The position numbers and the translations under genes were made by a program. From contig CM120649.1 of assembly GCA_051362555.1 (NCBI GenBank), positions 17,312,567-17,376,566 of the forward strand: a stretch of DNA of 64,000 bases, written 5' to 3'. This document shows, in pieces, positions 27,136-64,000 of the stretch. This DNA comes from Lingula anatina (Eukaryota > Animalia > Brachiopoda). Under the pieces are notes generated by a model, which worked only from the letters and a program-made list of their open reading frames with translations, made no database searches and was not told where the DNA came from. Position 1 is the first letter of the stretch. Every line of letters starts with the position of its first letter.

Positions 27136-27255
27136 GATTTCTTTGAAGGGAATGCCCATGCCCAGTTGGAGTTTTCAAAGTTGGCAATCAGATTGGGCCA
27201 ACTACAAGAGCTGAGCGAGCAGTTTGGATTGCATACTGCTTATCACAGAAAAGGG
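27136..27255 (+). CDS. Uncharacterised protein, coding exon 2 (R3H-like segment)
   Basis: TCTTTCCCTCTGTAG acceptor. DFFEGNAHAQLEFSKLAIRLGQLQELSEQFGLHTAYHRKG, 120 nt, phase 0/0. The donor GGG|GTTTGT is weak. Confidence 0.65.
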
Positions 27256-27679: not shown

Positions 27680-27884
27680 CATTATTGGGTAGTGAAACCC
27701 AAGGAAAGGGAAGGAAAGGTGGCAGGTGAAGACAAGACAAGCCAAGAGGGTTGTCTGAGCGCAGCTCATTCTGCAGAATCCTTAATTACCTCTGACCTTA
27801 GAAGAGAACAGTATGGGATGGATGTTGTGTCTCCTGAAAAGGAAGATAAAATAAAGACTTGTGTGGATTCTGCATTTGATGGAG
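27680..27884 (+). CDS. Uncharacterised protein, coding exon 3
   Basis: TTTTATTGCAG acceptor. HYWVVKPKEREGKVAGEDKTSQEG...KTCVDSAFDG, then GAG|GTATCT phase-1 donor. Confidence 0.75.
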
Positions 27885-28122
27885 GTATCTCTCTCTCTCA
27901 AGCCAACCTTATTTTTTATTTTTCTTCCCTCCATATCAATCTCCCATACAAAAATGTAAGACTTTTATTTTTCAACAAATCTTTCATTAATCACATAAAT
28001 TCTATGTCCAACATTAAAATTACCAGATAGAAATTTGAACATATAATGATAAAACAAATACAGCAAGTCTCTTTCATATGATCACAGATTGTTGTCGATC
28101 ATGAAATAATCACATATTTCAG

Positions 28123-28234
28123 ATGGTAAGAGAGAGGCTGATATTGAGGACAAGGTCAAGGTCAGCAGTCTTGCTGAAGGTCATTTGGGTCATTTCTTTG
28201 TGAACAGGGTCAGGCTGAATGGAGACAAGTCAAG
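28123..28234 (+). CDS. Uncharacterised protein, coding exon 4
   Basis: TATTTCAG acceptor, phase 1 matching the previous exon. (D)GKREADIEDKVKVSSLAEGHLGHFFVNRVRLNGDKS(R), then AAG|GTAGGG phase-2 donor. Confidence 0.75.
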
Positions 28235-29722
28235 GTAGGGCTGGGCTGTTGGATAGGTATGAATCGTTTAGCAATGATAAGAAAATATTATAATTTATTT
28301 GTATCATTGAATGTATATTTTTATATTTGGTTGCTGATAAAAGGAACAAACTATTATTTTGTTTTACCAAACTTATTTTTAGTGCCTTAAACATGGCATA
28401 AAAATCCTTCAGTTGGCAGTTGCAAGAACGGTTTCACTTTCAGATTTGCCCAGTTTTTAATTAAACTATTGATGTTTCATCCTGGCATCACTTATTCCTG
28501 TTTATGTTCATTTCGTCACTGTTATTTATGCGTAAGTTATATTTTTACTGTTATTTATGCTTTCATTAGCTGAATTATTAGAATGCAAAAATCATGACAT
28601 TGTTTCAAAGTGGTCATAAAATGTATTTTCAGTTGGTATGACTATAATTGTATGGGATGAACGCTTGTGAATGTGCTCAGCTGCACAGCTACCGCAATGA
28701 TTAGCTGCATTAACATCTCTTGAATGTGTTGAAGTGCAACCCTATGAAAATGGGTGTGAAGCTATTTATTGAATGCACTAAGATGCACACCTAACACAAT
28801 GACTGGCATTCACTATTATTATATTGCCAAGGTACAGACCAAACACATTGGTTGTGATATTTACTGAATGTCTTGAGCTTCACAGCTACTGCAATGACTG
28901 TGCATGTTATCTAATCATTTTATAGCTGCAGTTTGTGTGCATTGTCAAGAACTTTGAAATTTTGTCATTTTTTTGATACTCTCTTTTTTTTTGTTAATAT
29001 ATAGTTATCACCAGTTTTGTTCCACTTGAAGTAACTGCAGGGAAATCTGTTGGCTGAGATTTTTACTTAACATTGGTGATAATTTTTCAGGCTTTGAAAT
29101 AATAACTATGAAAGTATCCATTTTCTAAATTAAAGATGAATTTATTCAAAATTGACATGATAATCTGATGGTATTTCAATGGGTGGGAGAGATCTATTAG
29201 AATAGCTCAGCCAGAACCATGAGGTACGAGTTGGATTTATGGTTTCCTGTGTTATTTTCCCCCTGGTATTTTCCTGAGTGTGCTTGACACAAGCCAAAAA
29301 AATTAAATATTTGAATAAGTGTGATTTCCTTCTGGAGGAAATTGTTGGTTTTGCATATGTCAATTAAGTTACTGATAGGAAAAGAAAAAGCTGCATTTTT
29401 ACTTTTGAAATTGGAACCAGAAAGAATGAGATGACAGGGAATTTCTTTGTCTGATTTATATCAAGAAAATCAATAAATACGAATGGAGTTTATAAAAGTG
29501 AAAATCCTAAAGCATTGCTTTGTTGGCAGTACTTCAGATTGATTAAGCCAGAAGTTATGAAAAGTGAGAGGAGTTTTTTGTTGTGAATAGTAAAAAAGGA
29601 GGAAGATTGAAATATATATAGGAATACTGAAGTGCTTAAAATTGCTAGTTTTGAGTCTGTTGTGGTTTTTGTAAACAGATTTTATGGGAGGTGCATTTAC
29701 ACTTAGCTGATTTGTGTCGCAG

Positions 29723-29843
29723 GTCAGAACTCATTTGCCAAAGCCAAAAGAACTTGGGTCAAAGGCTCAAACTGTTTAAACGGAAAAACTTAAGACAAAA
29801 AGATAGTTTTAGCTTGAAGATCAAGAGGTTTAGTTTATTTTGA
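29723..29843 (+). CDS. Uncharacterised protein, probable exon 5 (terminal, or internal ending at 29827)
   Basis: Branch-like GCTGAT plus TGTCGCAG acceptor. The phase-2 frame is open: (R)SELICQSQKNLGQRLKLFKRKNLRQKDSFSLKIKRFSLF*. AATAAA follows at about 29868 and 29916. The five exons total 723 nt (240 aa + stop). Confidence 0.5.
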
Positions 29844-36493: not shown

Positions 36494-38376
36494 ATTTGTA
36501 CCACCAGCGTTAGCGCTGGCGGTACACATGGTTTCGGTCCCGTCCGGATCGTTCCGCCGGCTCCGCCAGCTCCGCCGGCTCCGCCGGACGGCTACCTTTA
36601 CCGCTTCTCCTCCTAGACGGTAAGGGCCCCCGTGCCCATCTCATGGATTTAGGTCACCTATAATCTCAACTCGTTACACGTAAAATTTGGGCTTTGTCGG
36701 TACTGGGGTCTGGGTGTGGCACTCATTACAATGCACCCTTGTCTAAAAATGGCAAAATTAAATGCTAATTATCTACCCTAAGGAAGGAGTTATGGGAAAA
36801 ATTTCTATAGACGGCTTTCCAAAAGTCATATGTGTAGATTTCAAATATACCCTTGGATTTGACCTTTGACCCTTACTTCAAGGTCAAATGGGCCAAAATT
36901 TTCAAAAAAATGAAATTTTTTACGAAAAAAATTTTTTTTGCCCTGTTATTCAGACACTACACAGACTTAACCAATAATATTATTACCCTTCAGGTCATCT
37001 TTCATCTCCATGAATTTGTGGTCAATCGGTGCATTTTCACGGGAGTAGCGGCCATAAGATACCGAAACTGAAAACTGTCTCTAATTCGGGAACCGTTAAT
37101 GCTAGAGACCCATTCTTTTTTGCATTTTGTAGAGCATGAAAAGCCCAACACTGGAGGTGGTCTCGGTTTTTTTGTATTCCATACGGTTTTCGAGTTACGC
37201 TGTATCAAAAAGTACATATTGGTGGTAAAAGCAAAATGTGCAGTACGGTAATGGATAATAAATTTTGAACTCTGGAAAAATAAAACATAAGGCTTGGCAA
37301 AGCAGACAACTTGTGTTCAAAAATGACATTATTTCATCAAATTTGAACTTCTGAAACTTCAGAGCACCTCCTATTTCAAGAATTTTGACCAAAATGACAT
37401 TTTCTTCATTTTAAATAATTTTTTCTGTACGAAATTTAAGGCACATTATGGTAACTCCAAAATTATAACATTTAGTCCCTTATATCTCCAAAACTGGCAG
37501 AGATAGGTCCATAGTTACTATTGAAGTTGAATAGGAAGTCATATACTGGCAATCTTACTGTGACCTTGAAATTGACCTTTGACCTACTTTTCACCATGAA
37601 CTGAACTTTGCAAATTTTGCTTCCCTTTTATCTCCAAAACTGGCAGAGATAGGTCCATAGTTACTATTGAACTTGAATAGGAAGTCATATACTGGCAATC
37701 TAAATGTGACCTTAAAATTGACTTTTGACCTACTTTTTACCATGAACTGAACTTTGCAAATTTTGCTTTCCTTTTATCTCCAAAACTGGCAGAGATAGGT
37801 CCATAGTTACTATTGAACTTGATAAGAAAGTCATATACTGGCAATCTAAATGTGACCTTGAAATTGACCTTTGACCTACTTTTCACCATGAACTGAATTT
37901 TGCAAATTTTGCTTCCCTTTTATCTCCAAAACTGGCAGAGATAGGTCCATAGTTACTATTGAACTTGAATAAGAAGTCATATACTGGCAATATAAATGTG
38001 ATCTTAAAATTGACCTTTGACCTACTTTTTATCATGAAGTGAACTCTGCTAATTTCTTTCTCTTTTAACTTCAAACTTGACAGAGCTAGGTCCATAGTTA
38101 CTCTTGAACTTGAATAGGAAGTCATATACTGGCAATTTACTGTGACCTTGAAATTGACCCTTGACCTATCTTACGAAGAACTTAAATTTGATTGTACCAT
38201 ATATATTTTTTGCAATAGTTTAAAAATTCTTGTTGATTGCATTTTTACAGCTTGTCAAGCACAAAACTGGTGGCTGTGTCCCTTTTTTTGTGTATGTGGG
38301 GGTCTATACGAATGCGCTTGCTCCAGCTGGTGGTACAATATTCGGAGGCAGTATCGCCTCTCTGATCCTCTAGTTT
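36494..38376 (+). mobile_element. Helentron-associated non-autonomous element (HINE/DINE-1-like)
   Basis: 5' subTIR TTGTACCACCAGC within the hairpin TGTACCACCAGCGTTAGCGCTGGCGGTACA, then a GTCC/CCGCCGGCT microsatellite and a central tandem array. The 3' inverted copy GCTGGTGGTACAA (38326-38338) is followed by a GAGGC..GCCTC stem-loop and CTAG-TTTTT. Confidence 0.85.
37478..38168. repeat. 146-bp tandem array (about 4.7 copies) inside the HINE
   Basis: AGATAGGTCCATAGTTAC recurs at 37501, 37647, 37793, 37939 and (variant) 38084. Confidence 0.95.
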
Positions 38377-43052: not shown

Positions 43053-43950
43053 AGCCACGGTCACAACCGGACGCACGAATTTCAGGATCGTACGTCCCCT
43101 GCGATTTTTGGGTGTTGCGGAGGCCGTGGAGGTCGTAGAGGTAGAGGAAAATCTGCCTTGCGAGTCGCAAGGGCCACATGAGATGTCCTTTCAAGCAGGA
43201 ACGCTAATTGCAAGGAGCGATGGCCGTGGAAATTGTACTAATTTCTTGAGTTTGTCTTGCTTCCTGTGTACATGGCACACACTCATCACTTACGAAGGGA
43301 ATGCAACGCACGGCGAAAGTAGTGCCCTTTTGCGTCAGTTTTGCTTCACACTTGCCTCACACATTTGTGGTGACGTACTGACGGCGTACGTCAGATTTGC
43401 TTCCTGTTCTCCTCTTCTTTCTTCTTCCTCCGCCCTTTTTTCTACTATGTAAGCTTTTTTCTCTTGCCTTTTGGAGGCATATTAGAAACTAAATTGAGCA
43501 AAAATTTGAAAATTTTGAAAGTTTGTGTAAACGTTACACAGTCGACGTTCATTGTAAAGATACGAGCGTGAGTCGTGAGCACGTCTTTTATACACCAGGC
43601 ATGGGGGTGACGCACGTGCGACGCATTCCCGGTGTGCTCTCGACTTTGTTCGTTAGTTATGAGGGCATGCGCCTTACTCAACACGCAAAGGGCACTCGCT
43701 CCTTCATTGCTTGCGACGCGTGTCTCTCTTGCTAACTCCGTGCGAGGGGAGCAAGTTACGCTTGCGGCCTTGCTGTTCGCAGACTATTCGTAGAATCTTT
43801 TGGACATGTCCAACATCCTCCGTACGTGCTTACGGGCTATCTGGGTACTCGAAATTTCGTAAGAAGGACTTGCGTGGGACGTGAGATTCTGCCCAAAATT
43901 TGGACGCAAACAGCCAGTAAGAGCCCGTACGACCGGTTGTGACCGAGGCT
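43053..43950. mobile_element. Second Harbinger-type element nested in the first
   Basis: TIR AGCCACGGTCACAACCGG ... CCGGTTGTGACCGAGGCT with TAA duplication (43050-43052 and 43951-43953). CpG-rich interior; minus-strand remnant MPPKGKRKKLT. Confidence 0.9.
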
Positions 43951-44003
43951 TAAGCTGTGTAGCTCATGTGAGAAAAACCTTTGGAAGTAAAGAGCACGTG
44001 AAA

Positions 44004-44180
44004 ATGAGCCGAAAGAGAGCGGAGAATCTTTCTGCTGAAGAGAAGGGATACATCTCAGAACTAATAAAGGAGAAGTCCAACATCATTGAATCATAGAAAA
44101 ATGATGTCACATCAAGTCAAAGAAAAAATGAGGCGAGGAAAGAAATTACAACAAGATTCTTCTTGCGTCCAAATTGTTAA
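44004..44180 (+). pseudogene. Truncated Myb/SANT-like (NAIF1/MSANTD-type) DNA-binding ORF of the Harbinger element
   Basis: MSRKRAENLSAEEKGYISELIKEKSNIIES*KNDVTSSQRKNEARKEITTRF fits the R..NFS..EK..L..LI....IIE.K..D.....K..AW..I...F pattern. It has an in-frame stop and has lost the conserved Trp. Confidence 0.8.
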
Positions 44181-47100
44181 GTGCTCGAATATCACGCAAG
44201 TCTACGTCAGCCATCTTTTTTCCAAGCTACAGAGTTAAACCTGGGTCTGACCAGGTTTATTTTTAGACTTGGTCTGGGTCCATAATCCGGGTATCAAAAA
44301 CTTAGACCTCAATTATGAAACACAAACCTGTCTAGACCAGGTTTAGAATGATGTTAAGCCATGTTTTACTAGACCACTGGTCCAATACTAAAACCTCCTT
44401 TATGAAATGCAGGTAATCCCTAAACCTGGTGTAAACTCACTTTAGACCAGGTTTAACTTTAAACCTCCTTTATGAAATTGGCCGAATATTTTCAGGAGCC
44501 TCAGTGGGAGAAACATTGTTTTCCCATTATTTATTTATTTATTTATTTATTTATCATCAAGAAATGTATGAAAATCAATGTGATGAAATGTTTTGTTTGA
44601 GTGTGGTTTGCAGAATTTTTTAGTAATTACCTTACCTCAGGTCAGATATAACATGTCCTTTGTATAACATTGGAGTGGAAAATGCCAAGCAAAGGTTACA
44701 TTGGTTACATGTAGAAGATTGCAGTCGATATGTCACAATGTCACTGCCTTATTGTGAAGTCATTTGAGAAATGGAATGTCAGGATTATTGGCAAAAAGTC
44801 TGCATTGTAGTTGATACATTTGTACGTTTTTATTCACTGTGATGTTATTTCACTTGGCGCTTTGTTTTATTCAAAAATATGTGTCAACTGTGTTGAATTC
44901 CTTTTATTTTTCATGACTATCAGAGAATGTGAAGGTACTTACAATGACATATCAAAGTCAAAGGATGATGTTATTATGGTTAACAACATGATGTTATTAT
45001 GGTCCAATGTCAGTTGTGTTATGCAATCAAAATTGATCATTGCAATCAGTCTAGTCCACTCTCCCATGAAGTCCACAGCATGAGGTCATGCAGCCTTTGA
45101 TGATTGCAATCAGCTTTCATAACCAGGAATATAAGCTTAGCACATCAAAGTGCAGTGTATTCATATAGGCTTTCACTGCAGGTTTTTCATCACTATCATA
45201 TCATATCTGTCACATGGGGCGCCAAAAGTAACCAAGTTCATTTCTATCTTTAAATGCATTTAACTGAATGTGTAAAGCGACCTGTTATTGTAGCACTTTA
45301 ATTTTGTTCCATCAGCAGCCGTATGCAATTAGTACATCATACCGCCAGCAGCTAGAACATTTTACTGTTATAATGCCGTTGTCCTCTCTAGGGTAGCAAT
45401 GGCGATATGGGTATATATCTAAAGATAGTCAATGAAACTTCAATAAAACCTTGAACCACCAACAGAGGTGTATCAGAATCATACTGTTGCAGAAGCGAGA
45501 ATGATGTAATTGTGGGTGCAAACTCAAGGCATTAGTGACTGTACGATGTACCCTGTAATTTTTGAGGCTCATCTGCTGCAAACGTCAACTGCATCGGTAC
45601 AGCTGCTCAGGCAATGGGGAAATATTAGATCAAAGGACAACAGATAAAATATCATCAGTTATTGACAAGTTATTGGAGAAGAGGGAGGGAGTGCCCTAAA
45701 TTTTGAAAACATTTGAGCATGTAATATGACATAAAAATGAAAATTAAGCTTGATGGAAACTGCCTAGGATTATATATTGCACAGGAGACGAGCAGAAGAA
45801 ATATTTTCAAATTAAGTTTTTCGAGAATTTGAGATGACAGGCTTTGGCATTTCTTTTAAGTTATGCTATTTGAAAACTATGATGGCATTTGGTTGAGTTT
45901 TGTGGCAACAATTTTACTTCATATGTAACTTTAATGTAGGAATTATAAAAAGAGAAAAAAAATAACAGGAAAGAAAGTTTATGGTGGCCCACAATATGTC
46001 TAGGTAACCAGCTTAGTGTAAATTTTAGATTCAGTGCAGGAGCAGCAAATTCTTTAATCTCACAGTGGGGATATCTGGATGTTTTTGTAGATGTCTTCAA
46101 TAGGGTTCGTAGGAGTTTTGAGCCCTCAACAGGGGTTATGCAATTGACCTGAAACTAAGGGTGGCTCCTAAATCTGGAAGATGAGGCGCTTTCACGAAGA
46201 ATTTGATAACCATGATAGATCTTTGGTTGTTCTTGTTTTTTATATTAAAAACTAAAGAAATGATCTATATTTTCTATCAAAAAGTACTTTGTTTTATTGG
46301 AGTATTACAGATTATTATTGATCTTGGATTATAATGGAACAAAAGTGTTTAACCTCCAAGTAAAATACATTTTTCGGTTTTTAGTTATTTTAAGAAACTA
46401 GCCAGTTGATTGGTTTTGGGAAATTAAGTTGCAAATGTTTTAGCTTTAATGAAAAGAAAATACAGTTGTCTACCAATACATTTTCTTGACGAGAGGCAAC
46501 GGTAAAATAAAATGAAAAGTAAATGTTTTTAATTCATCCGCTGAATTATTTTCCTAATTATCTAGACAGGGAGAAATACAAGTTAGCCGAGTTAAGCACA
46601 GGCAAAGATAGAAAAAGATCTCACTCTATTACAGGTGACCTTGCTGTTGACCTTGCTTTTGTCACTGATCTGCATAGCAGGAATGATACAGATGTTAAAT
46701 TATTAAAAGAGAACAATAAAATAAATGATGATTAAAATGAATAATGATAATAATAATACAGGAAAAAGAATTTTTGGGGATATAAAATGTACCATTCAGC
46801 TTTACCGATATTATTATTATTATTTATTAATTAATAATAATGATAATAATAATAATTTATTACAATAAAAACAACAACAACAAAAATTATAATAACAGCT
46901 ATAAGATATGGAGGGTTGATAGTAAGAACCCCACCATCCTGGTCATTGCCCCCCTGCATGTGTGAGACTAGACAGGTTAAGTAAGACCACCTGCCACAAG
47001 GTGCTCATAGTGTGGATGGTATTGGATAACAAAATGCCAGGGGGCGGTTGTTCAAACAAACAGCTAATGCGTCCCTCATGAAGGGCTGTGCCTCATGCAT

Positions 47101-49837: not shown

Positions 49838-51351
49838 CTGTCTGTAAGTCTATAGCTGTTTATCTTTTATATTTCTGGATAAATATTAGAAGAAATTATT
49901 CTGTGGAAATTTATTTTCTTTCTGTAGATTTGTGCGTTAGAGATGAGAGGACTTGGGTGGGGAGGGGGTTAATTTCACAATACAACTAAAGGTGAAAGAC
50001 TGCTTAAGATTTAGCTGTCTCAGTTGCATTGAGGCATTTCAACTACACATAAAGGCCAGTTGTTTGTAAGATGCTCTGATTATATGGCAAAGTTAACTTT
50101 AAGTAGTTAGCTATCTGATGGTAGCAGTCTAAGCTAAGCACAAAAACTAACTTTTTGTAAAATAGTCCCCAAGCTGTAAGATTTTATGGGAAACATAAAG
50201 CCAGCATAAATGGCTTTATAAGATTGATGGCTATATATTGTCAGTGTGTTATATGTTCCTTATATTAGATAAGTGTATACCTTTTGTTTTTAGAATATGT
50301 AATAAATACTTTTCATATTGAAGGCAATTGTCCAGTATTTTTCAATACCTGAAAAATGGTAGGATTTTGAAATATGTTGATAGATATTTCCTAATAAGAA
50401 TCCAAGTACCTTAAACGTTTTTGCAGTTCATGAGTCAATATTAAGAAAAAAATACATTTATCAAATTGCTGAGAATAAATGCGTGTTGACTGTAGAATTA
50501 ATATAAGTAGATGATATGATCTGTAAACATCTCCCCGAAGGTGGGTGTTTTTTGCAAAATTAAAGCCTATGTCCACATGTTTATGATATATTTCCTTTAA
50601 AATGTTTTCAAAAAGAAAAAATAACATATCTTTTACATGCATCTGTACAGTATAGGTAGCCCCTGTAAAAAGGAGATGGATTTTAAAAAGTAGATGAATA
50701 AACGAAGTAGAAATCAAGTAAAAGATTTAAAAAAAAAAAAAATCCACAACACTTCGGATGCCAAGTTAACACATTTGTCCACCAATCAACAACTGATCAG
50801 TTGGATAAGAAAAATATATATAGTCTGTGAATTTTTACTTTCTCTGGCATAGTGCTAGCATGGCAAGTGGCTGATAATTACCAACCATTGATGACATAAA
50901 TTAAGCTCTAAGAACCATATAATTTCACTCATTGTGAGTACAGCCTAGTATTGAAGAATACCCAGATATTGTATATTGTCATATTAATAGCTTGAGGTTC
51001 GCCAAGTTCAGTAGAGTTCAGTTCTTAGTATGCAAGCAGACACGAAAGTCTGTGAAAGTTGGATTGAGCACTGATGTGGGATGTTCCAATTTCCCATAAT
51101 GCATTGCTGTTTCTGTGACGCAATCTATGAAAGAAAAGTCTTTGAAATATGACATGCATTGCTAATAATGGTAGGCAATGATGGAAAAAAACCCACATAG
51201 TTTGCAGAGTGATTTAAGTCTAAAATGAACATTCAACATTGTCCAAACTGTAAAGATGGATCGAGACAGCCAGTAGGATTCAGTTGATCCATTCTGAATT
51301 TTTTTTTTAGGTGATATGCTTGTGTTTATTTCAAGCAAATGGCTATTCCAT

Positions 51352-51635
51352 TCACTGCACAACATCCCATGTGTAGCGCTTGTTGCAGACCAAGTTCTCC
51401 TGTAACATTTTGTTTTTCGCACACGTTCGGCTCATGTAGATCCAGCAGTGCATTTTACGCCCTCCTGTTTCATGTCCGTAGCATGTATCGTGGAGGAAAA
51501 TCAGCTGACGACAGCATTTTTCGCTCTTAGGGGTGCCAGCCATGCAACAATCCTTCAACCTGTCGATGCTGTCGTAGCAGCATTGAAGGTCAAACAGGCA
51601 GCAGGCAGGCATAAGCCGTTCACAGCAATCGTAAC
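51352..51635 (-). CDS. Novel cysteine-rich protein, terminal exon
   Basis: Minus-strand acceptor TTTTCTTCTCCCCAG, phase 1. (G)YDCCERLMPACCLFDLQCCYDSIDRLKDCCMAGTPKSEKCCRQLIFLHDTCYGHETGGRKMHCWIYMSRTCAKNKMLQENLVCNKRYTWDVVQ*. GC-rich island; minus-strand AATAAA at 51330-51325. Confidence 0.8.
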
Positions 51636-54154
51636 CTGGGGAGAAGAAAAATTAAATGTATAACTTTGAATTGTGGAAAAATGCAAAACATTGAATATAT
51701 CGAATGAAAGACATAACTTCATGTTTTGGGTGGCAGGGGTGAAGAAATAAATATAAGAAAAATGAAGTACTGTAATTTCTTACTTAATTTAAACAAAATT
51801 GATTCATTGTATGCATTATAGAACAATGTTTTGTTAGTAAATGTAAAACAGATGATTTAAATGTCAAAGAAAAGGAAATTATTTGGGCTCCTGCCAGAAG
51901 GCCTTGTTTCGTGAGTGATTAAAATCATTTTGATAAATCTCGACAGGGTGAAATATTGCAATATGTGAGTTGATGGAAACATGAGAAATTGCCCTATCAT
52001 TTACAGAGTGGATGATTTATACTGATGCTGTGTAATAAGATTCTAGAGTTAGATATTGAAATCGTCTGTCAGTGATGAATTTAAGTAAGACAAAGTTAGT
52101 TTTTTATGAAGAAACTGCAGTCTTCTATTTCTTTTAGATGTTTCAAATTCTAGGTGTAATGACTGTTGATTTAGTTACTGTATACTATTTGGTTGCCATA
52201 AACAAAGCATTCCAACAAGCATTTTGTAAGGTCTTTATGACTGTGTTATGTGATATATTGGAAAGTTGAAAAAAAAAGTCAACATTGTAAAAAAAGTAGT
52301 CCTTTTTAGGAGTTGATTTGGTGTAAATTTTAAAAATAGGTGGACTATACAGGCAATTCACACATACACACACATGCACGCACACACACACACACACACT
52401 CACACACACATTCAAACATCATAGCTATCACGTAGTGTGAATACCTGTTGGGAATTTACTGTTCATTCTTTGTTTTATGCAGTAGCAGTCATGCCAAACA
52501 CATGAATCCTTGTTAGAAAAATGTGTTTTCTTGATTTATTGAACAAATTAATATTTTGAAGTGGCACATTTGTCACAACATTGGCAGGGTTTCAAAATTA
52601 ATCATGCACAAGTAATTCTACATTTAATGATTTCCTGTTGAAAGTATTTTTTTGTGCAGCAAAACTCATTTGTATAAAGGTTTTTCTGGACTTCTGATTT
52701 AAGTCCAAGTATCCAGTTCGTGCTTAAGAAATAACCTGAAAATATATATATGAAATCTATCCAAAGTCAAATACTTTAACTAAGGGCTTGGCATCAGAGG
52801 TGTCTATGGCTTAAAAATGCAATCAAACCAGGCTAGTTAAGCTATTTAATTAATGTCAAATCCAACCGACTGATTTCACTCTATTTATGTTACACATTTG
52901 TCCGAGTTGCTAAGCTACTGTTGAATAATAAGATGATCTGGACTTATTCCGTTATGCAACTTTGAGAAAGTACAAAATCTGATTCTACTTAAGACAGCTA
53001 CTGTTGTCTTTTTCTTCTTAGAATGAAAGCAAAATAAAAGGCTTTAGTTTGTCATTAAGTGTTCAATGTGATCACATTTGGAACATATTTTGCTACCAGT
53101 ACATAGGAGTTAGGATGGATGCATTGGGCAGACGTGAATGCCATGATGATGTAATGTTAAAAGAAAAAAAAATTAACCAGAAGAAAAAGTTGCATCATTT
53201 ACTTGCAAGTGAAGATATAATTGTGTAATGATATTGACATTGGTTATAAATGCACAGTGGTAGAAGTAAATAAGGCCTCAAATACAAATCGCTTTAAAAT
53301 ATAGCAAAAAGTCTGTCAGTTATCAGGACATCTTCATAACTGTATTTTTGCATGATTTGTTTTAAGAAAAAAATAAATAAAGCCATTAACATAAAAGGTG
53401 CTTCTAAAGATCGACATATGCAAAGACAGAATTGATGATGTAGAGGATTTTCAGTGGCATAAAATGGTACAATAGATATATAGTAAATGCCCAACACTTT
53501 TATAAGATTGGTCTACAAATAGTCAGTTTTCTATTTGTAACATCTTGTAGAAAACCCTCCCAGACAGGGAATATTAGATAATATTCTGTAAAGGTAAAAG
53601 AGCCTAGAATGAGTTAATGATTAGATCCCACCTTGTACGAGGTGGTGTAAAGCTTTGATTAATGGATATCAGACTCGTGTTAGATAATGGTTTACTCCGC
53701 TATTCAGACAGACAAACATGGCTGACACTACTAATTAATACCTGTTAGACCAGCCTGAAGCTATAGCAGCAGGTCAGAAATATCAGGATTGATGTATAAA
53801 TATATTCTGGAAACTATTTGAAGATCAAGGAAGTGCTAGTTTGGAGGTCAGGAAGAGATGAAGTCAGCATGTGCTGCAAATGAACAGAAATAAATCAATT
53901 TTTGATAGGAGGGGGGAGAGAGCTATTTTCTAAGCGATGATGAGTTTTTTTTTTCATAGGTAGACAGGTGGATCAGAAGGAGGTCTTGAACCTTTTTAAA
54001 CTTGTATTTGGATTGAGGAAGTGCATATTTGCGTGTTGGGATGTTTGGAAAATGAAACGGCAAAATCCTTGGAAGCTAGGGTATTTGGTTGGGATATTCA
54101 GATGCTATTATTCAGATAAACTTTTTTTGCAGGATGAGGTTGCATGGATGTGTG

Positions 54155-54157
<3 letters not shown>

Positions 54158-54202
<45 letters not shown>
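54158..54202. repeat. (GA)n microsatellite
   Basis: Direct reading; explains the ERERER ORF. Confidence 0.95.
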
Positions 54203-54205
<3 letters not shown>

Positions 54206-55650
54206 AGGAAAAGGAATTTATGTAAAAAAAAGCATAATAATATTAATAAAGATTATATACAGATGTGCTGTAAAAGTTATTTTATTAATTTTATGATAGA
54301 GAAATTGGGCTCTTATTAATCTCATGGTCATTTTTAACTACTTGTAAACACGCCCTTTCATATGTGCTTAGTAATAAGATAAATTGTGAACGAAGCTTCT
54401 CTTATTAAATTTAGGATATTTGTGAGCATGGCCTCTCTTACATCAAGTTAGGCTAGTTGTGAACGCAGCCTCCCATAAACGGGCCTAGCCCAGTTTCTGA
54501 CCCTGTGTCGGCACTAGTTTCATCACCGATGACCTCGCTAGCTTATGCAGTATTTTATAAACACAATGTGCTTTGAAAAGAAATAACCTTAGGCCCTACC
54601 AAGGAAGAGTGATTCAAAAAGAAATAACTTGCGGCTTTGCAAATATGAGATGCAAGGAAAATAAATACCCCGAAGTACACGAGAGGCGGGATGCTGCAAA
54701 ACTGGATTGATCCTGAGTTCTACAGGAAGTTACTAATGCCAACTTCCAAATGACAGGCTTTGTTGTGAAAGTCGAGATATTGGAGTTGAAGTTATCAACA
54801 AGTTATGAAAGAGAGGGGCAGGGGTGGGGAGGAACAGGTTTTGTACGACCCAGGTCACAGAAAAAGTGACCTGCCATTAACTGTGTAGAAACTTTTTTTT
54901 TATTCTTCTGCAACGCAATTTTTTAGTGTGTGGGTAATTGAAACACATGTTGAAAATGTTGCGTGCCAGTTGGTTGAGCCACATTGGAAGCAAAAGAATC
55001 CAATTGCAGAAACCACATGGTAGTATGAGTAGGTAGTTTCTTTTTCTATTAGAGAAACTAAGCTGATTGACTAACGACTTGACTTCCACAATGTTTTATC
55101 GTCAGTTAGGAATGTGCCTCATGAAATTTTGGCAAGGTTTCAAAGTTTTTTTCTGTTATATTTTTATATTTAGCTTTTTAAAGCCCTATTATATCCACCC
55201 CAAGGATCTTCAATTATAGCCAAGATGAGAACAGTGATCACATTTTTTTTTCCATACAATTTAAGCTTTTTTGGGGCTTGGGAAGGTCATCCTGCCCATC
55301 CTCCTGCAAAGGTTTTATTGCAATATAATGAATAGCTGAGATTGAGAACAGTGATTTTTTGGCTACCAAAAATATATACCATTGACAGACCAAAATATTT
55401 TGTCCAGCAAAGAATGCCACCAACTGTGTTGGGCACGCAAATTTACTTTGATTTATTCTTCTAAGAAGAACTTAATGTTGGTTTATAACATCATCCCCTG
55501 ACAAAGATTGCAAGAAGTGTAAGACAGAAATATTGGAGTAGTAACTACCAAGGTTTTTTTCTGTTGTTTGCAGATTCTGTTAATGTTGCAAAAGGACATA
55601 CTGTTATTTTTGTTTCCATTTATGCCTCTGTACACCTTTGTTGAGATTGG

Positions 55651-55685
<35 letters not shown>

Positions 55686-56457
55686 CATTATTATTAAACA
55701 AGATTAATGCTTTGCCTGTCAGTGATGGAATAAATTCATTTCTTGTCGGTTTGGATTGATCTGGTAATTGACTGGAAGATATATTGCCATTTGTCATTGC
55801 TACACTCCAGTTTTAACTAGTCTGAAATGCGAAAATCTCTTACCTACTCTCACCAACCCCCACAATATTGTTTGCTCTGATGTATTGTGGCATTTTTGTG
55901 TATATCTCTACATACAGTGGGGGTTCCCACACAGCTCTCCCACATACAATATATTCTTTGTTCTCAATAAGTTGGGCATGGAATTTATGAAATAAAGGGG
56001 AAAGATGCCCTCTCATAGTTATATTTCATGTCGTTTGTTTCTTTCAGAATTCTCAAAGTCATTATTTATGGCATTAAAATTAACTACTAGAGAAATATTT
56101 TCAGTCAGAATTGAAAGATAGAAAATTTTAGATTGAAATTTTTGATCTTATGGTAAAATGCACCAGCTCTTTAGTTATTAAAAAAAAATCGACCTTTAAA
56201 TGTAGTTTTGAGTGGGCAGTTTGGACTTGTTAGCATAAACACAGTTTTTTTTTTTTTTTGCTTATCTGAGACTACTGAAATAGGATAGCCCACTATACAA
56301 ATTTGAATCTTATCTCTGAGACTTACGGAACAATATACTAGTGAAATTTAACTAACTTAAATTCGTAGCAGTCTTTGCTCAGACCTCAGATCAGCTTCAG
56401 TAATTCTGTGAAAGAGGCCCTGATTTCCCATAGATGAAAACATGAATTGGAATTTAC

Positions 56458-56528
56458 CTTTTTCACAGCATCTGTCCACTTCTTTTCCAATGAAACTGTC
56501 ACCTCCCCATGTAGATCTTCTTGTTACT
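56458..56528 (-). CDS. Novel cysteine-rich protein, middle exon
   Basis: Acceptor TTATCATTACAG and donor AAG|GTAAAT. (K)VTRRSTWGGDSFIGKEVDRCCEK(G), 71 nt; the phase-1 end joins the terminal exon and continues the CC pattern. Confidence 0.75.
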
Positions 56529-56644
56529 CTGTAATGATAAATTTTAAAAGAATGGTATAATTATTCAGTTTTGCACTATATGGCTGAAGCTTTCCTTAAT
56601 GATTATAAGTCTGAAGTAAGAATTGAGATGTTCAGAGATCTTAC

Positions 56645-56655
56645 TTGATGTCCAT
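56645..56655 (-). CDS. Novel cysteine-rich protein, first coding segment (MDIK); the start may extend to the ATG at 56754
   Basis: CAAAC-ATG-G context, then CAA|GTAAGA phase-2 donor and a 116-nt intron. The frame is open upstream to an ATG at 56754 (MWFYLLLMWFFS...). Confidence 0.6.
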
Positions 56656-56851
56656 GTTTGAGCTGTCTTTGAAAAATGCAACTGAAAACCTAAAAACAAA
56701 ATCGAATTTGGACTTGCCTGAAAAAAACCACATCAGTAATAGATAAAACCACATCAGCTACAATTTATAGTAAATATATCATTGGAAAAGAGAGCTGGAA
56801 TTTAATTGACCTGATAGCACCTCATTAATGTTATGATATATATGGATATAA

Positions 56852-57190
56852 TCAAAATGGCAACAATGGATGTTGCAATATTGCCAACAATGGACGTATC
56901 ACATTGGCAACAACAATTAGAACCATATTGGCAATGGATGGAACCACATTGGCAACACTAGATGGAACCATGTTGCAATGGATAGATCCATCATAGAAAT
57001 GGATAGTTCCACTTTGCCACAACGGATGGAACCATGTTGGCAACAATGGATAGTCATGGAACCATTTTGGCAACAGACAAAGCCACATTGTCTATAATGA
57101 ATGAAACTGAGTTGACAACAGTGGAAGAAACAATATTGTAAGCAAATTGATGGAACCACATTGGTAACAGCAAAGAGCACTATATGTTGG
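56852..57190. repeat. Degenerate minisatellite, unit about 24 bp
   Basis: Units resembling TTGGCAACAATGGATGGAACCATG; accounts for the repetitive ORFs 56852..57088 and 56917..57240. Confidence 0.85.
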
Positions 57191-58026
57191 CACAACTGGA
57201 TAAAACTGTTTAAAAATGTCAACAAAGAAGAAAATCCCATTTTCTTTCATAGATAAAAAGCATGTTTAGCAGTATATATAACAATGGGCATAAAATGACA
57301 GATGTAGATTTGCAGCAAATGATATAAACACAGGCTTTATAATACATAACACCATCAGGTAACAGATTAGTAGCAAATTCATGAAATATTATGTCTTTGG
57401 TGAGTAACTTTCAAGCTATGACTTCCTGTTGAAATTTGTTTCTTTCATTTCCTGACTAACTAGCGTGTTAAGTTTTTTTCTTAAATGTGAAAAAATTATC
57501 CAAAAAGGGATTTAAGGTGTGATCCCAAGTCAGTGAGCTCACTAATTTTAGCTTCAAGTGATTTGTTTATATACAAACTGAATCCACTGTGTTAACAAAT
57601 TGTACAGTAGCATTTTTTTTTATTTCAGAAGTATTTCTCCAAATTAACTTGTCACTCGTCAAGAGCTACAGCCCACTGTTATCCACACAATTTTTCCAAG
57701 TTGACAAAATTTAAGCTACAAATGTAGGCTTTCCATTGTTTATGTAACTATGGTAGTTATTCGATCTTTTCAGTAGGGGAAAAGTCTGAATTTTACAGAT
57801 ACTATAATTTTTAAGTTTTATATTTTTGATATTAGAACATTACTATTGAGTGATAGATACAAAACTGAAAGGCAGGCCACCTTGTTTTTCTATTCTGTAC
57901 AGTAAAAACACCACATATGGTACACAAAAACATATTCTAATGATGACATGTATCTGAAGATTGATAATTTTTCTGCCATTGAAAAGACGGAGTCATTACC
58001 GTATAACACCCAAGGATGCCAAGCAG

Positions 58027-58172
58027 GGCCTCTTTACTCGAAAGCATCGCGCATTGCAACGGAGCGCAAGCGCTTCGATTCCATAACTAGCCATACTCGC
58101 CCCATATAATACACTGTAGCCTCTTTGTGATATCGCTATTCTCAATATGCGATTCTTTCGAATGATGGGGCC
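58027..58172. mobile_element. Short Harbinger-like MITE with CAG duplication
   Basis: GGCC.C...TCGAAAG.ATCGC ... GCGATTCTTTCGAATGATGGGGCC, with CAG on both sides. Confidence 0.7.
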
Positions 58173-60166
58173 CAGGACAGGATGGCTAAAGAAGCATATG
58201 CAGCCACCAAGGATGTATCACATCAGGACTGAGACCCATGTGTTTAAGTAATTAAAGAAAATGTTGGGAAAAAAGGAATGAAAATGATGCATAAGATTCC
58301 TTGAATTTTGTAAGGGTAAGAATTAAAGGCTAATACATATATCATTGTTTTTACTGTCCTGTGCTTGAGTCCTGCGTGAAGCACATTTCTGAAGGTGCAC
58401 TTTGTGTAATTTCTAATGTAAAACATCTCTCTTAGCTAATTTACTTATGAAGAGGAGGAGTGAGCTAATTAACTTATGTAGAGGAGGAGTGGGGGGGGGG
58501 GGGCTGATTGAAACCAGTTCAGTATCACTAAATATTAAACCTAATGGGCAGAATACAATGATAAATTCCAGTTCTTAGTCTATTATAGTAGACTGTAATT
58601 ATTGCCTGTTTCTCTGTGTTTCTGGCATACCTTTATATCTCAGCTGGAGCTTCCTGGCTTAATGAAGGCAATCAAAGCTCCTCTGGTTTTAAGTACTTCA
58701 GTATCACTTAATTCCTGTGTGGTTCTCACTGATGTCAGAACAATTCAATAATTGGTGATTTTTGCTTTCAAGGCCGTCTATAGTCTCCTGAGCATTTTGC
58801 AATTAGAGGAAAGATTCCAGTTTTTTTTTTTTTTCATCTCTCATTGCTCTATGAGCCAAATTGAAAAAAAAAGGCCCTATTAAGACCAAAGGTTAGCAAT
58901 GACATTTAGTCCTGAAGCTGCAAGGAAGATTTTTTCTCTGTTACCCTTTTTGGTCAACCTTTTAGGTTTTCCTAATAGAAACCCGGGCCCCAAGTAAGGT
59001 TGGTGGAAAGGGGGGGGGGCATACAAGGGACTAAAGCACCTGTTATTTTTCATTTGAAAACCAAATTTCTGTTTTGCATTTGTGACTCAAAGGCAGTAGT
59101 TCAAGAAATATTTGGCTTTTGCTGAAAACAGATACAGCTTTTTGAGAAAATACATGTTTCGTAAACCTAATGACTTCTCAAAAATGTGTTAGAAATATGT
59201 GGAAAAAAAGACAATTTGGTTAAGATATTTCAGATGAATTATGCACATAAATCAACGACACGTTCTCCCCAGTCATTGCAGGTGAAATCATATCTTTGAT
59301 GGAAATGAGGTTTGGGGCCACCAGTTGGAATCCAAGGGGGCCCAGCTGTGGATGTTTCCAGAAAACACCAATGTATTGCATATAGGAGCACTTGTAAGAG
59401 ACGGAACACTATGAACCACAGGTTAATCTCCAGATAGGAAGAACTTAAGACTGGTGGGTTTCAAAATGTCATATAAACAGACATGTCTGCTACAGCACTG
59501 TTAACGTTTGAGGCATGTTACCACAGTGGCTTTGCCATCTGTCACCTTTGACTCAGCAGACGGTACCAACATGTTATTTACGCTCCCAAACCTGCCCCTG
59601 ATATAATATTTCCTTCCAGCTAAATCGTTTGATCCTTTCGTTAAAAATGCAGGAAGAAAGAAAGCTTCTTGCGAGGCATTTTACAAGGTCCCTGCCTGGT
59701 TCTGCCTCAAAGTAATTAGGGTACTATTTTCACCAGGAATGTTCTATTTTTAGTCTTGGGTGGATTATGTGAGGCTTTGTTCTGCAACTGTGCACATAGT
59801 TTTTTGTCAGTCAAGTGTGAAATATTTTGAAGCCACTCCAAATGTTATTGTAAGGATATGCTGGAAAACACTAATGTGCCATTTGAGACGTAGAAGTAAA
59901 ATGTGTTTACAAGCAGCTACAAATAAAAACAGTATTGTACCTGTGGTGCAAAATGTAAAGAAAAAATGCCCTCTTCATCAAATAATTAACTGATTGACTT
60001 TTTCTGATAAGGTAAACTTTATCAAATAATTGACTTTTTCAAATTGCACATTTATTGATCAAATTATAGAAGGATAATTTGCTGAAATTTAGGGGGAAAG
60101 GCTGACCAGTGTAGTCTAGAGGCATCTTCCCCATGGAACTATCCTTCTATATGTAGATCTATCTAG

Positions 60167-60290
60167 TTCTGTGGGGACTCTCGCTGAATGCAATCAGACT
60201 AGCAGATTAACACACCTCTTGTTTCCAACACCAAGGAGGATGCATGTTAATTTGTACATCTGATTGCATTCAGCAAGTGTCCCCACAGAA
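60167..60290. mobile_element. MITE family C hairpin core, copy 2
   Basis: 32-bp inverted arms with 2 mismatches (TTCTGTGGGGACTCTCGCTGAATGCAATCAGA); same arms as 49686-49800. Confidence 0.8.
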
Positions 60291-63200
60291 TGGGATCAAT
60301 CAAAGTTAGGTGTTGGGTCCCATGATAAACGTTCTCACCTGATTTAGACGAGACAAACATTTCCGCTCAGGTTTTTTTTTTGTTAATGCAAAAGGTGGTC
60401 TAGGTGATGACTGCCAGGAGCAATGCAAATTTGCACGTGTTTTATGTCACAATACTGGTAGCCGTGGAGGAAATTGGAAAGGTTGTTAACAGGCGATCGG
60501 ATCAATCTTAATTTATATTAATCCGAGGCTTGTATAGTTATGGCAGACTATACTGCCTTTGCATGTCAATGAATATCTGTTTCTTTTCTTTCTTTTTATT
60601 TTCATTCCCCCCCTTGAAGATAGGTTTACATTTTCGTCTCACCTAGCAAAAGCAATGCTTGAAGTGAGAGGTATGTTCAATAAGCTAATCTGATCGCGTT
60701 GCAATAAGATATTTCTTTTTTTATCTGATCATTTTATCAGTGATGGAACATGACATTTGGATTTACTGCTTGGTTATTATTAGCTAAACTCAATTGTAAC
60801 TGTCAAATGAAACATATAGGCTCCGACAGCAGTCCATTGTTCAACCCGCAATATTGATTTTTCGTCTATTAATTTTAGACACTGTTTTACGTAAACGGAT
60901 ATGTGGCAGTCATTCTTCTTTGTATCTGAATTTAATAAATTTGAATATAAAGAGAACTGTGTTGCAGCTATTTCGTGCTGAGGTAAGGTTCTTGTTTGGT
61001 GATCGAATTTAATAAATTCATACCGAATACCGATTTTTTTCGTTTGTTGGTAAATATTACCAGCAGATAGTACCTATTTTTAGTTCACAATTTTTTATTC
61101 CATTTTTTGCCCTTTATTTAAAAAAAAGAAAAACAAACAATCTGCTCTCACAATAAAAAACAAACATTATTTCAAAGGTTTATGGACTCCCCTTCTTGTT
61201 TTCAATTTGTTTGATGGCTATTATCCTTCAGCAACACCTGCAGTACCACTTAATTAAGTCTTTTCTTAGCCTAATATCCCATTTAAGCTGCAGATGATTA
61301 TGAATCCTAAGCACAGGATTTCTAGGAAATTGGCCTGTCTGTTCCAGAATGTGGTGTTTTCCACACAAGTTGGCTCAACCCGTTTGTGCCAATCTAGTCT
61401 CAGCAGGCTGATTATGTCTGCTGATCAGAGTAGAACCCCCTTTTCACTAGACTGCATCCTTTATGTATCCCATAGTATGGCCCATTTGAGAGTAAAAAAA
61501 ACAAAACAAAACAAAACATGCTGACAACTGGCCGATCATTGAGCCGGTCATTGAATATCATTTTGCAACCAAAGCAATGCTTGTGCCTCCTTTCTATGAC
61601 CACAGCAACTAATTAGAACAATTTTGTTTGGAAAACCAGATCAGTTAGGCCTAATTATTACTGACCATTGTAGAATTAGAATCTGCTCGTCATGTTAGAT
61701 TCAGTCTGTTGATTTGTCTGCTACGATGGAACATGCTTGTATAGTTAGCTAGGCCCATCTTGGTTGGGAATATGCCTTTAGAGTTCATATTTGCAAAATG
61801 TTTCTGAATTTAACCTTTAAGGCATCTGCTATAATGCACAGTGAAAGAGCTATTAGTATCTTCTCATTGTCTTCTTACCCTTAACAAATCACCCTAGGGA
61901 GCACGCTATTTTAATTGGAATCATTTGATAGAGTGGGGTTTTTTTTTTTCACTCTTATCTCTATTATTTTATGTGACAGGACGCCTGTGCCTGAAAGCTC
62001 TCACACACCTAGGTCTTCTCTTATACTACTATTTAAGTCCGTTTTACACCAAAGTCGGCTATAGATCTTAGCTGACTAAATTGCTTTTTGCAGAGAAAGG
62101 CTGCCAGCCGTATTAAAAATGTTTAAGGGAAGTGGGCATGCAATGAGGCCCTTTTGATTGTCTTTACAATGGTTTTTATTATCAGTCATTTTACAGGTGT
62201 GTGTGTTTGTGTGCGTGCGTGCATGTGTGTGTGTGTGTGTTAACCACATTTATTGTGCACCATTCTTTTTGGTATATGTATGCATTTACAGTTATCAAAT
62301 GATATGCTGAATCGGTGTGCACAAAGTCAAGTTATAACTCAGCTGGGATTGCAACCTAAAGCAACTTTCTGATCCTTCACGAAAAATATGTTGACCCTGC
62401 TGTTACCAGTGAACCAATGTTTTATTTAGAACACTGCACTTGACTGAACTCCTCTCCGTGCATCACAACTTTTTTGTTGGCATTAAAATGAAGAGAGTTG
62501 TTAGAAAGAGACCAACAATGAAGGATGTCGATATAAAATGTTGTTCTTTTTTAAATAACTGCATGCTTATATTTCTTTAATCCTTTAGTTAAAATCGTTA
62601 AGCAGTCTGCCTACAGTTTAACTTGCAAAACAAGTGGTCAGCTCAGTTGATAGAAGGCATGGCCAGAAATAAACGGGGTACCATAATATTATTGAGTGTA
62701 AAGACAGGCAAGGGCTTGTTTTTCACATTGAATAGCATTACTATTTACAATATACTCTGTGAAAATAAAGGTTAAGTTGTATCTGTACGTGGGCCTAGGG
62801 GCCATCTGGACTGGCCTGTACCAACAGCAAAACTGTATTTTAAATTGGTAGACAGAAGATGTTGCTTAAAATAGACCCATTTCTTTTTATTAAGGAAAAG
62901 AAAGTATTTACAATTATATTATAATTAAAATAATCTATGCTAGTTAAATAGAACAGTGTATGAAAAAAAAAAAGAAAATTTTACAAAATGCATTGATTTT
63001 ACAATCTTATTATCTTATAGTGTATTTTTAAAGGATAGTGTAGGTTATATCTCAATGTATTTGGTTTACAGTATTAAGGTCTCTGGGCACCAGAAATAAG
63101 AATAGAAAGCCCAGGAGAGGAGGAAGAGCCATCTGGACTTGCTTGTGACACAAACCAAAAGGGGAAGTATGATATATTTGACGTGTGCCCTTTGGACTTT

Positions 63201-64000
63201 GGAATTACTTATAACTAAATATAGGTTGCATTTTTTAATCCTTTCAGTAGATAAGTTTATTGCAATCTTTCAATTTAATAGAATTTTTGAAATGTGTATA
63301 GGAACACTAAGGCAAAATTTTAATGATGATTGTATTTTGGCATTGTATTCAGGAGTTGCTCTTTTTAAGCTTTACTTTTAATCAATGCTGCAAATTAAAT
63401 GACTGTCCCTAGCAATACTGAAATGAAAAATTGTGTGGTGTAAGATTTTAGGTTAGAGGGAAAAGGATTATCAGTAAATGAACTTAAACCATGCATATCC
63501 TATCTGTAAAATAATGCAAGTATTTATAACCCCTTCTAAGTGCCAGTTGCACAAAACTGTTTTATTCAGAAATCAATTAGACTTTTATTTGTTATGGGTA
63601 AGTGATTTGTAAAATGCAGTAAAACCAATACCACAAAGTTGACATTGGGTTATTGAGTAGTCGGTTATCTTAGATTATCCATTTGACTTAAGATCAAAAT
63701 CTTCGGCCTTGTATGAAACATACTCCTGAACATTTGAGGACGTGTGGTCCTCATGTATTTAGGAGAGGAGGGCATCTGGAACTTCCTATAACTCAAAGAA
63801 AAAAAGAATAACTAAGCCATAACAATGTAATGCTAGTTGTCGGAGACTTTGAGGCAGACTTTGACACTTACTCGTCTGAATTGGTAAGACGCATTTAGAT
63901 TCACATGTGCTAAGGTGAGTTATGTCACGTGTAAGTTTTTTTTTTTTTTTTTTTATTTTTTTTTTTTTTTTATTTTGCTAGATTTGCCTAGTTTATTTAG

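What the first reader, a model, noticed from the sequence alone, without database searches (positions are those of the whole stretch)
51352..56754. Hidden minus-strand gene encoding a small protein with six CC doublets (16 Cys)
Seen: three exons (56655-56645, 56528-56458, 51635-51352) splice in frame to 121 aa: MDIKVTRRSTWGGDSFIGKEVDRCCEKGYDCCERLMPACCLFDLQCCYDSIDRLKDCCMAGTPKSEKCCRQLIFLHDTCYGHETGGRKMHCWIYMSRTCAKNKMLQENLVCNKRYTWDVVQ. The framework is CC-x5-CC-x6-CC-x5-CC-x9-CC-x9-CC-x9-C-x11-C-x7-C-x11-C. The CC rhythm continues across a 4.8-kb intron, which is unlikely by chance. The frame also stays open upstream to a hydrophobic start MWFYLLLMWFFS (56754), and an RR precedes the Cys region. 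I do not recognise the family. Inference, two alternatives: (a) a secreted prepro disulfide-rich peptide (toxin, pheromone or defence-like, loosely recalling helical CC-rich proteins such as con-ikot-ikot); (b) with the MDIK start, an intracellular metal-binding or S-acylated protein.
Basis: partly seen in the sequence, partly recalled or inferred. Interest (0 to 1): 0.8.

Follow-up and report, generated by a model that had tools for sequence, protein, structure and literature searches.

The report
Lamp-shell secreted six-doublet cysteine protein
This is the rear part of a real, spliced and already annotated but unstudied gene of the lamp shell Lingula, whose protein is likely secreted and likely cut to release a 16-cysteine domain of no recognised family (only one relative was found), which most likely acts outside the cell as a signal or binding protein rather than as a toxin.

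Summary
The gene is real but neither hidden nor built as first described. Exons 56528-56458 and 51635-51352 are 100% identical to residues 43-160 of RefSeq XP_013418122.1 (Lingula anatina LOC106179133, 160 aa), and RNA reads span their junction. The proposed first exon (MDIK) and the MWFY start have zero depth in 4 of 4 runs. In one run, 9 reads join exon 56528 to the RefSeq signal/pro exon, which is not in the window. The intracellular reading therefore fails. The protein is signal + pro-region + RVTRR + a 113-aa domain with 16 Cys. One relative exists among 1.84 billion cluster representatives (P0004, 39% identity): same layout, RSKR site, 16 of 16 Cys kept, mature domain better conserved than signal or pro-region. 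No Pfam, PDB or fold match was found; the models are low-confidence but helical. It does not meet the defining patterns of con-ikot-ikot, galaxin, granulin, albumin/ECM1 or phospholipase A2. Best reading: a convertase-processed, disulfide-locked extracellular ligand or binding protein of an undescribed small family. The function is untested. Moderate-to-low interest.

The parts
56458..56528 (-). Internal coding exon (71 nt): end of codon R43, the RVTRR processing site and the first CC doublet (residues 43-67 of P0003)
   Evidence: tblastn 100%; AG/GT ends; RNA depth 8.8 (X4), 7.9 (X7), 6.9 (X9), 0 (X1) in bin 56458-56541
51636..56457 (-). Intron, 4,822 nt, GT-AG, phase 1
   Evidence: loose read ends at 56456 match the start of the next exon in X4 and X9
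51352..51635 (-). Last coding exon: residues 67-160, five CC doublets and four single Cys, TGA stop
51325..51330 (-). AATAAA 22 nt behind the stop codon, likely polyadenylation signal
   Evidence: only AATAAA/ATTAAA within 550 nt downstream; use not tested
56529..64000 (-). Upstream intron (at least 7.4 kb); the signal/pro exon or exons for residues 1-42 are inferred to lie beyond the window's end
   Evidence: no exact 5-residue match or credible tblastn match to residues 1-42 in this stretch; degenerate motif 0 matches in the window with up to 3 mismatches; junction reads in X7
56645..56754 (-).
   Evidence: depth 0 over 56626-56793 in 4 of 4 runs

Best explanation
The window holds the last two coding exons of the expressed Lingula gene LOC106179133, whose 160-residue product is likely secreted, likely cut by a furin-type convertase at RVTRR, and predicted to release a 113-residue, mostly helical domain likely locked by eight disulfides, which most likely acts as an extracellular ligand or binding protein (hormone-, growth-factor- or pheromone-like). 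Shown: exon structure, splicing, expression in 3 of 4 runs, the conserved layout and 16 Cys in one relative. Inferred: secretion (about 0.9), convertase cut (about 0.85), eight internal disulfides (about 0.85), helical fold (about 0.6), ligand-like role (about 0.4). In the structural picture (inference) the CC doublets sit at the ends of short amphipathic helices and each Cys of a doublet staples a different neighbouring segment, giving a compact, protease-resistant bundle whose conserved N-terminal half carries the binding surface.
For: RefSeq protein with a hydrophobic N-terminus (11-residue hydropathy 1.9-2.7 for windows starting at residues 7-17) ending VVCG, and the same in P0004, ending FVCG. 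RxxR lies at the same place in both, RVTR(R) 43-47 and RSKR 46-49. 16 of 16 mature Cys align; the only length changes fall in the N-terminal tail and in one loop. Identity by region: signal 5 of 24, pro 6 of 23, mature 50 of 109, non-Cys residues of 63-98 13 of 26, the reverse of the conserved-signal pattern that defines conotoxin superfamilies (PMC10437998, passages). No paralogues found. Modest and sample-dependent expression: depth about 7-9 in three runs and 0 in X1 from 9.5-12.4 million records. Among reads, 3 listed or visible changes in the Cys-region codons are silent and 1 change in the N-terminal tail is not (read by hand; small numbers). Helical hydrophobic moments 0.5-0.7 in the segments flanking the doublets in both proteins; helices in both AlphaFold models.
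Against: No receptor, partner, tissue or phenotype is known; the tissues of the runs are coded. The family has two sequences, and the source of P0004 is unnamed, so orthologue versus paralogue is unknown. Models are poor (mean pLDDT 55.9 and 46.8), and residues 75-86 of P0003 have a higher strand-type than helix-type moment. No SignalP run was possible. The 5' junction was listed for one run only (36 loose-end rows were not shown). A single-copy conserved secreted protein could as well be structural or defensive. It matches no peptide-hormone family in the passages seen of PMC8557429 and PMC6425005.
Confidence: 0.42

Rival explanations
1. A galaxin-like di-cysteine matrix protein: secreted, cut at the basic site and cross-linked into shell, periostracum, setae or pedicle matrix.
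For: Galaxins have a signal peptide, a dibasic processing site and di-Cys motifs (PMC2726143, passages); the mussel protein cysrichin is 163 aa, 14.7% Cys, pI 8.15 and acts in shell formation (PMC10045328, passages); many Lingula-specific shell proteins are small, secreted and basic (PMC4595640 supplement).
Against: No ~30-aa sequence repeats (spacings 5, 6, 5, 9, 9; self-comparison gave only the diagonal); none of the 14 novel shell matrix proteins fits P0003 (160 aa, A 4%, G 6%, acidic 12%, pI 8.3; nearest is 09615 with 159 aa, A 6%, G 8%, pI 7.0), though that table gives no sequences and uses other gene models; expression is modest in the runs laid.
Confidence: 0.24
2. A host-defence protein (antimicrobial or deterrent) stored as a pro-form and released by a convertase.
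For: Prepro layout and high disulfide content are typical of invertebrate defence peptides (own knowledge); P0004's mature domain has net charge +6.8.
Against: The Lingula mature domain is nearly neutral (+0.6, pI 7.4); no paralogue array found; the mature region is the most conserved part.
Confidence: 0.2
3. An extracellular metal-binding protein that uses its 16 Cys as thiolates.
For: 16 Cys in 113 residues, 2-3 His; CC doublets occur in metal-binding proteins (own knowledge).
Against: Even Cys number, secretory route (oxidising) and many conserved aromatic and aliphatic residues fit a disulfide-bonded folded core; metallothioneins lack such residues (own knowledge).
Confidence: 0.07
4. A venom-type toxin resembling con-ikot-ikot.
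For: Tripartite precursor and predicted helices, as in con-ikot-ikot and Mu8.1.
Against: Con-ikot-ikot has 86 residues and 13 Cys, p21a 10 Cys with two CC; here 16 Cys with six CC; no PDB sequence or fold hit to it; Lingula is a suspension feeder without a known venom organ (recalled).
Confidence: 0.04
5. An intracellular S-acylated or metal-binding protein starting at MDIK.
For: The MDIK exon has a consensus-like donor and splices in frame on paper.
Against: Depth 0 in 4 of 4 runs; junction reads go to the signal/pro exon; the relative P0004 keeps the signal/pro layout.
Confidence: 0.03

Closest known systems
RefSeq XP_013418122.1 / UniProt A0A1S3K6J5 (uncharacterized LOC106179133, Lingula anatina)
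   Same: It is this gene: residues 43-160 are 100% identical to the two exons.
   Different: Residues 1-42 are not encoded in the window; no function, domain or paper is attached (0 papers for three identifiers).
Galaxin and galaxin-like di-Cys proteins (coral galaxin, mussel cysrichin)
   Same: Signal peptide, basic processing site, many CC doublets, similar size to cysrichin.
   Different: No tandem ~30-aa repeats, not acidic, not Ser-rich, predicted helical whereas cysrichin is predicted disordered/beta; no sequence hit.
Con-ikot-ikot / saposin-like macro-conotoxins (Mu8.1, p21a)
   Same: Signal-pro-mature layout; ~90-110-residue helical disulfide-rich domain.
   Different: 16 Cys with six CC against 10-13 Cys with two CC in framework XXI; no conserved signal; no venom context; no detectable similarity.
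Albumin/ECM1 double-loop domains (CCXnC motif)
   Same: Four CC-x7-10-C motifs in each of the two proteins; helical double loops would be one way to use the doublets (PMC5480655, passages).
   Different: Far shorter than an albumin domain, doublets much denser, no Pfam or PDB hit.
Snail CRASP (Achatina cysteine-rich atrial secretory protein)
   Same: A precedent for an orphan, secreted, all-helical disulfide-rich lophotrochozoan protein released into haemolymph (PMC4596865, passages).
   Different: 10 Cys in 158 residues, acidic, no pro-region; no similarity found.

Membership tests
Secreted convertase-processed disulfide-rich precursors (general kind) | N-terminal signal peptide | tested here: met
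   Hydrophobic core and G|M / G|L cut-like site at 24 in both proteins; junction reads tie this exon to the gene; no SignalP available
Secreted convertase-processed disulfide-rich precursors (general kind) | Conserved RxxR site between pro-region and Cys domain | tested here: met
   RVTR(R) and RSKR aligned; cleavage itself untested
Secreted convertase-processed disulfide-rich precursors (general kind) | Cys oxidised to disulfides in the mature protein | not testable with these tools
   Even number (16) conserved; needs mass spectrometry
Galaxin / galaxin-like | Signal peptide and dibasic processing site | tested here: met
Galaxin / galaxin-like | Tandem repeats of about 30 aa with two di-Cys each making up most of the protein | tested here: not met
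   Spacings 5, 6, 5, 9, 9, then four single Cys; no off-diagonal self match
Galaxin / galaxin-like | Match to a galaxin profile | tested here: inconclusive
Galaxin / galaxin-like | Presence in the skeletal matrix | tested here: inconclusive
   No row of 14 in Supplementary Table 26 of PMC4595640 fits length and composition; no sequences in the table
Con-ikot-ikot / saposin-like conotoxins | 10-13 Cys framework (XXI: CC-C-C-C-CC-C-C-C; con-ikot-ikot 13 Cys in 86 aa) | tested here: not met
   16 Cys, six CC, 107-113 aa
Con-ikot-ikot / saposin-like conotoxins | Saposin-like four-helix fold | tested here: inconclusive
   Models at pLDDT 47-56; best Z 5.4 (rmsd 3.5, 68 aligned, signal/pro helix) and 4.0 (rmsd 3.0, 65 aligned)
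Con-ikot-ikot / saposin-like conotoxins | Highly conserved signal peptide with variable mature region | tested here: not met
   Signal 5 of 24 identical, mature 50 of 109; two sequences only
Granulin module | C-C-CC-x8-CC-x6-CC-x5-CC-C-C pattern with DxxHCCP (pattern recalled) | tested here: not met
   0 of 2 proteins match either pattern; no Pfam hit; only the x6/x5 spacing is shared
Albumin / ECM1 | CCXnC motif | tested here: met
   Four CC-x7-10-C matches per protein; a weak, easily met pattern
Albumin / ECM1 | Albumin domain (about 176 residues, profile match) | tested here: not met
   Mature domain 107-113 aa; 0 Pfam families, 0 PDB sequences for A1
Secreted phospholipase A2 | Conserved catalytic His-Asp in CCxxHDxCY (motif recalled) | tested here: not met
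   HDTCY in P0003 is 7 residues from the CC and reads RNICY in P0004
Intracellular S-acylated / metallothionein-like proteins | No signal peptide (cytosolic) | tested here: not met

The most novel reading that the evidence does not exclude
LOC106179133 founds an undescribed, lineage-restricted family of secreted signalling proteins (a brachiopod hormone or spawning/settlement pheromone) built on a new disulfide scaffold: a run of short helices each stapled at both ends by CC doublets, eight disulfides in 110 residues, with no counterpart among solved folds.
Probability: 0.22. Interest if true: 0.55.

Novelty: new variant of a known kind. Interest (0 to 1): 0.3.

Why it matters
The gene model already exists, so the gene is not a discovery. 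What is new here is small: read support for the true exon chain, a relative that shows the prepro layout and all 16 Cys are conserved, and the exclusion of the obvious families. If the domain proves to be a new CC-stapled helical fold it would add an unusually dense disulfide scaffold, and if it is a ligand it would be a brachiopod signalling protein outside the families seen in the passages of the two neuropeptide surveys read. Without tissue or function data it remains one of many lineage-restricted secreted cysteine-rich proteins of marine invertebrates.

Tried and rejected
No whole genome is held, so the upstream exon and paralogues could not be located in DNA. No RNA holder was listed by index; raw-read runs of the same species label were laid instead. 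Only 56290-58790 was laid (4 of 9 listed runs, about 6-30 in 100 of each run read), so exon 51635-51352 and the 3' end have no direct depth. Pfam: 0 families for P0001, P0002, P0003, P0004. PDB by sequence: 4 weak rows for P0003 (E 0.3-0.63, enhancer of rudimentary homolog 2, Cys not matched), 0 for A1, 2 weak rows for A2 (E 0.6, IL-1 receptor-like 2); all rejected. ESM Atlas for P0003: no usable feature hit, structure rows mostly TPR-like at TM 0.39-0.53 from a pLDDT 0.50 model; not answered for P0001 and P0004. Foldseek: 0 matches at E up to 0.001 for both models; VIA-align best Z 5.4 and 4.0, within background; these blanks do not show a new fold. Longer fused forms: 0 of 46 candidates. Metagenome contigs: 0 of 95 pattern matches confirmed. 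Phospholipase A2, granulin, con-ikot-ikot, galaxin, albumin/ECM1 rejected as memberships (see table). Molluscan CRNF (123 aa, 11 conserved Cys, proposed cystine knot; PMC3966541, passages) and CRASP do not fit. Identity with shell protein 09615 rejected on composition. Identifier search: 0 papers; topic searches gave no paper on this protein in listings; the library lacks most subscription papers. Earlier-findings look-ups by sequence, place and one word set were empty. No complex prediction was sent, as no partner is proposed.
Full report
1. Observation. The minus strand carries a 71-nt exon at 56528-56458 and a last exon at 51635-51352, with AG/GT ends around a 4,822-nt intron. The last exon translates without a stop to 93 residues with five CC doublets. 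A stop-free stretch with 4 or more CC in 60 residues occurs once in the window and in 0 of 30 simulated windows of the same dinucleotide make-up.

2. Identity. The exon-3 peptide found 1 of 1 candidates: a 160-aa protein, 100% identical, named uncharacterized LOC106179133 of Lingula anatina, RefSeq XP_013418122.1. Residues 43-67 and 67-160 map to the two exons at 100%. Residues 1-42 (hydrophobic N-terminus, then a 23-residue pro-region) have no credible match in the window, so their exon or exons are inferred to lie beyond position 64000, behind an intron of at least 7.4 kb.

3. RNA. Four of nine listed runs of the same species label were laid on 56290-58790. The bin holding the 71-nt exon has mean depth 0 (X1), 8.8 (X4), 7.9 (X7) and 6.9 (X9); in X4 all first mates there lie on +, as expected for a minus-strand RNA in a usual stranded library. 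Loose ends at 56456 (X4 7 reads, X9 12 reads) are the reverse complement of the first 30 coding bases of the last exon. A loose end at 56530 (X7, 9 reads) translates by hand to 8 of 10 matches with RefSeq residues 33-42, in the right phase. Depth of 7-9 from 1.3-1.7 billion letters suggests an order of 10 transcripts per million (rough inference; short exons lose reads).

4. Relatives. phmmer over 1,835,955,588 representatives gave 1 protein at E up to 0.001: P0004, 156 aa, E 6.4e-32, from an unnamed Logan contig of 1,407 bases. It aligns end to end at 39%: hydrophobic N-terminus ending VCG, pro-region, RSKR at the place of RVTRR, and 16 of 16 mature Cys. A two-sequence profile found only these two among 78 candidates, none among 46 longer candidates, and none of 95 metagenome pattern matches was confirmed. 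Identity is 5 of 24 in the signal, 6 of 23 in the pro-region and 50 of 109 in the mature domain; without Cys 34 of 93, and 13 of 26 in residues 63-98. Mature domains: 113 aa, 13.1 kDa, pI 7.4, charge +0.6; and 107 aa, 12.5 kDa, pI 8.7, charge +6.8.

5. Structure. AlphaFold2 on two sequences gave mean pLDDT 55.9 (full length) and 46.8 (mature part), both mostly helical over the doublet region and unreliable in the last 40 residues. Segments before and between doublets have helical hydrophobic moments of 0.5-0.7 in both proteins, while residues 75-86 of P0003 lean to a strand period. Foldseek found nothing at E up to 0.001; VIA-align gave best Z 5.4 (rmsd 3.5, 68 aligned, all in the signal/pro helix) and 4.0 (rmsd 3.0, 65 aligned), which is background. 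The fold is therefore undetermined, not shown to be new.

6. Mechanism. Shown: a spliced, expressed gene with a conserved signal-pro-RxxR-Cys16 layout. Inferred from general knowledge of such precursors: entry into the ER, oxidative folding to eight disulfides, convertase cleavage, release. For the role, the points that weigh are single copy as far as searched, better conservation of the mature domain than of the signal, inconsistent charge between the two members, and modest, sample-dependent expression. They fit a ligand or binding protein under purifying selection better than a toxin or cationic antimicrobial peptide, but do not exclude a matrix or defence role. I put the ligand reading at 0.42, matrix 0.24, defence 0.20, metal binding 0.07, toxin 0.04, intracellular 0.03.

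7. Known families. Pfam gave 0 families, PDB sequences only chance rows, the Atlas no usable hit. Con-ikot-ikot has 13 Cys in 86 residues and p21a 10 Cys (PMC4278219, passages); saposin-like conotoxins have 10 Cys and a highly conserved signal (PMC10437998, passages). Galaxins share signal, dibasic site and di-Cys motifs but consist of ~30-aa tandem repeats and are acidic (PMC2726143, passages); cysrichin has five repeats (PMC10045328, passages). The granulin and phospholipase A2 patterns (recalled) are not met; the His-Asp of HDTCY is lost in P0004. The CCXnC motif of albumin/ECM1 (PMC5480655, passages) is met formally, the domain is not. In the Lingula genome paper (PMC4595640; passages of the main text, search of the supplement and its part 9 of 24) none of 14 novel shell proteins fits the composition of P0003. 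Passages of PMC8557429, PMC6425005, PMC4536745, PMC4453069, PMC4596865 and PMC3966541 name no such family; their supplementary sequence lists were not read and could hold it. A search for three identifiers found 0 papers. The galaxin and granulin leads came from earlier AI notes on unrelated proteins and were tested here on this protein only.

8. Verdict. It stands for a two-member, undescribed family of likely secreted cysteine-rich proteins with an unusual six-doublet framework. New variant of a known kind; interest 0.3.

Noticed in passing
window 3087-17576 (+): Exons of an AMMECR1 gene: Pfam PF01871 hits at 9611-9940 (E 1.6e-8), 10113-10286 (E 2.2e-10) and 17370-17573 (E 0.0026), with the N-terminal exon near 3087-3413.
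   Followed up: partly
window 58054-58221 and 57718-57885: Interspersed repeats inside the upstream intron that draw many diverged RNA reads on both strands in 4 of 4 runs (depth up to about 95 in X1; reads run on into unlike sequence), with one opposite-strand joint; likely copies elsewhere in transcribed regions.
   Followed up: no
   Followed up: partly
window 43863-44238 (+) and 46523-46735 (+): ORF pieces that recall the Myb/SANT-like protein of Harbinger-type transposons (recalled; Pfam gave no significant hit).
   Followed up: partly
window 37591-38170 (-): Three near-identical ORF translations starting 146 nt apart point to a 146-bp tandem repeat.
   Followed up: no
window 17836-29843 (+): Several exon-like ORFs (17836-18147, 23804-23983, 27136-27447, 27617-28030) may belong to a further plus-strand gene behind AMMECR1; no significant Pfam hit.
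   Followed up: partly
window 56505 and 56474: Reads of X7 and X9 differ from the window at 56505 (a Gly-to-Ala change in the N-terminal tail by hand reading) and at 56474 (silent); X4 matches the window, so the runs hold different alleles or populations.
   Followed up: partly
PMC4595640 Supplementary Table 26, gene 09615: A mantle-enriched, secreted, no-homology shell protein of 159 aa and 18 kDa; composition differs from P0003, but a distant paralogue cannot be excluded without its sequence.
   Followed up: partly
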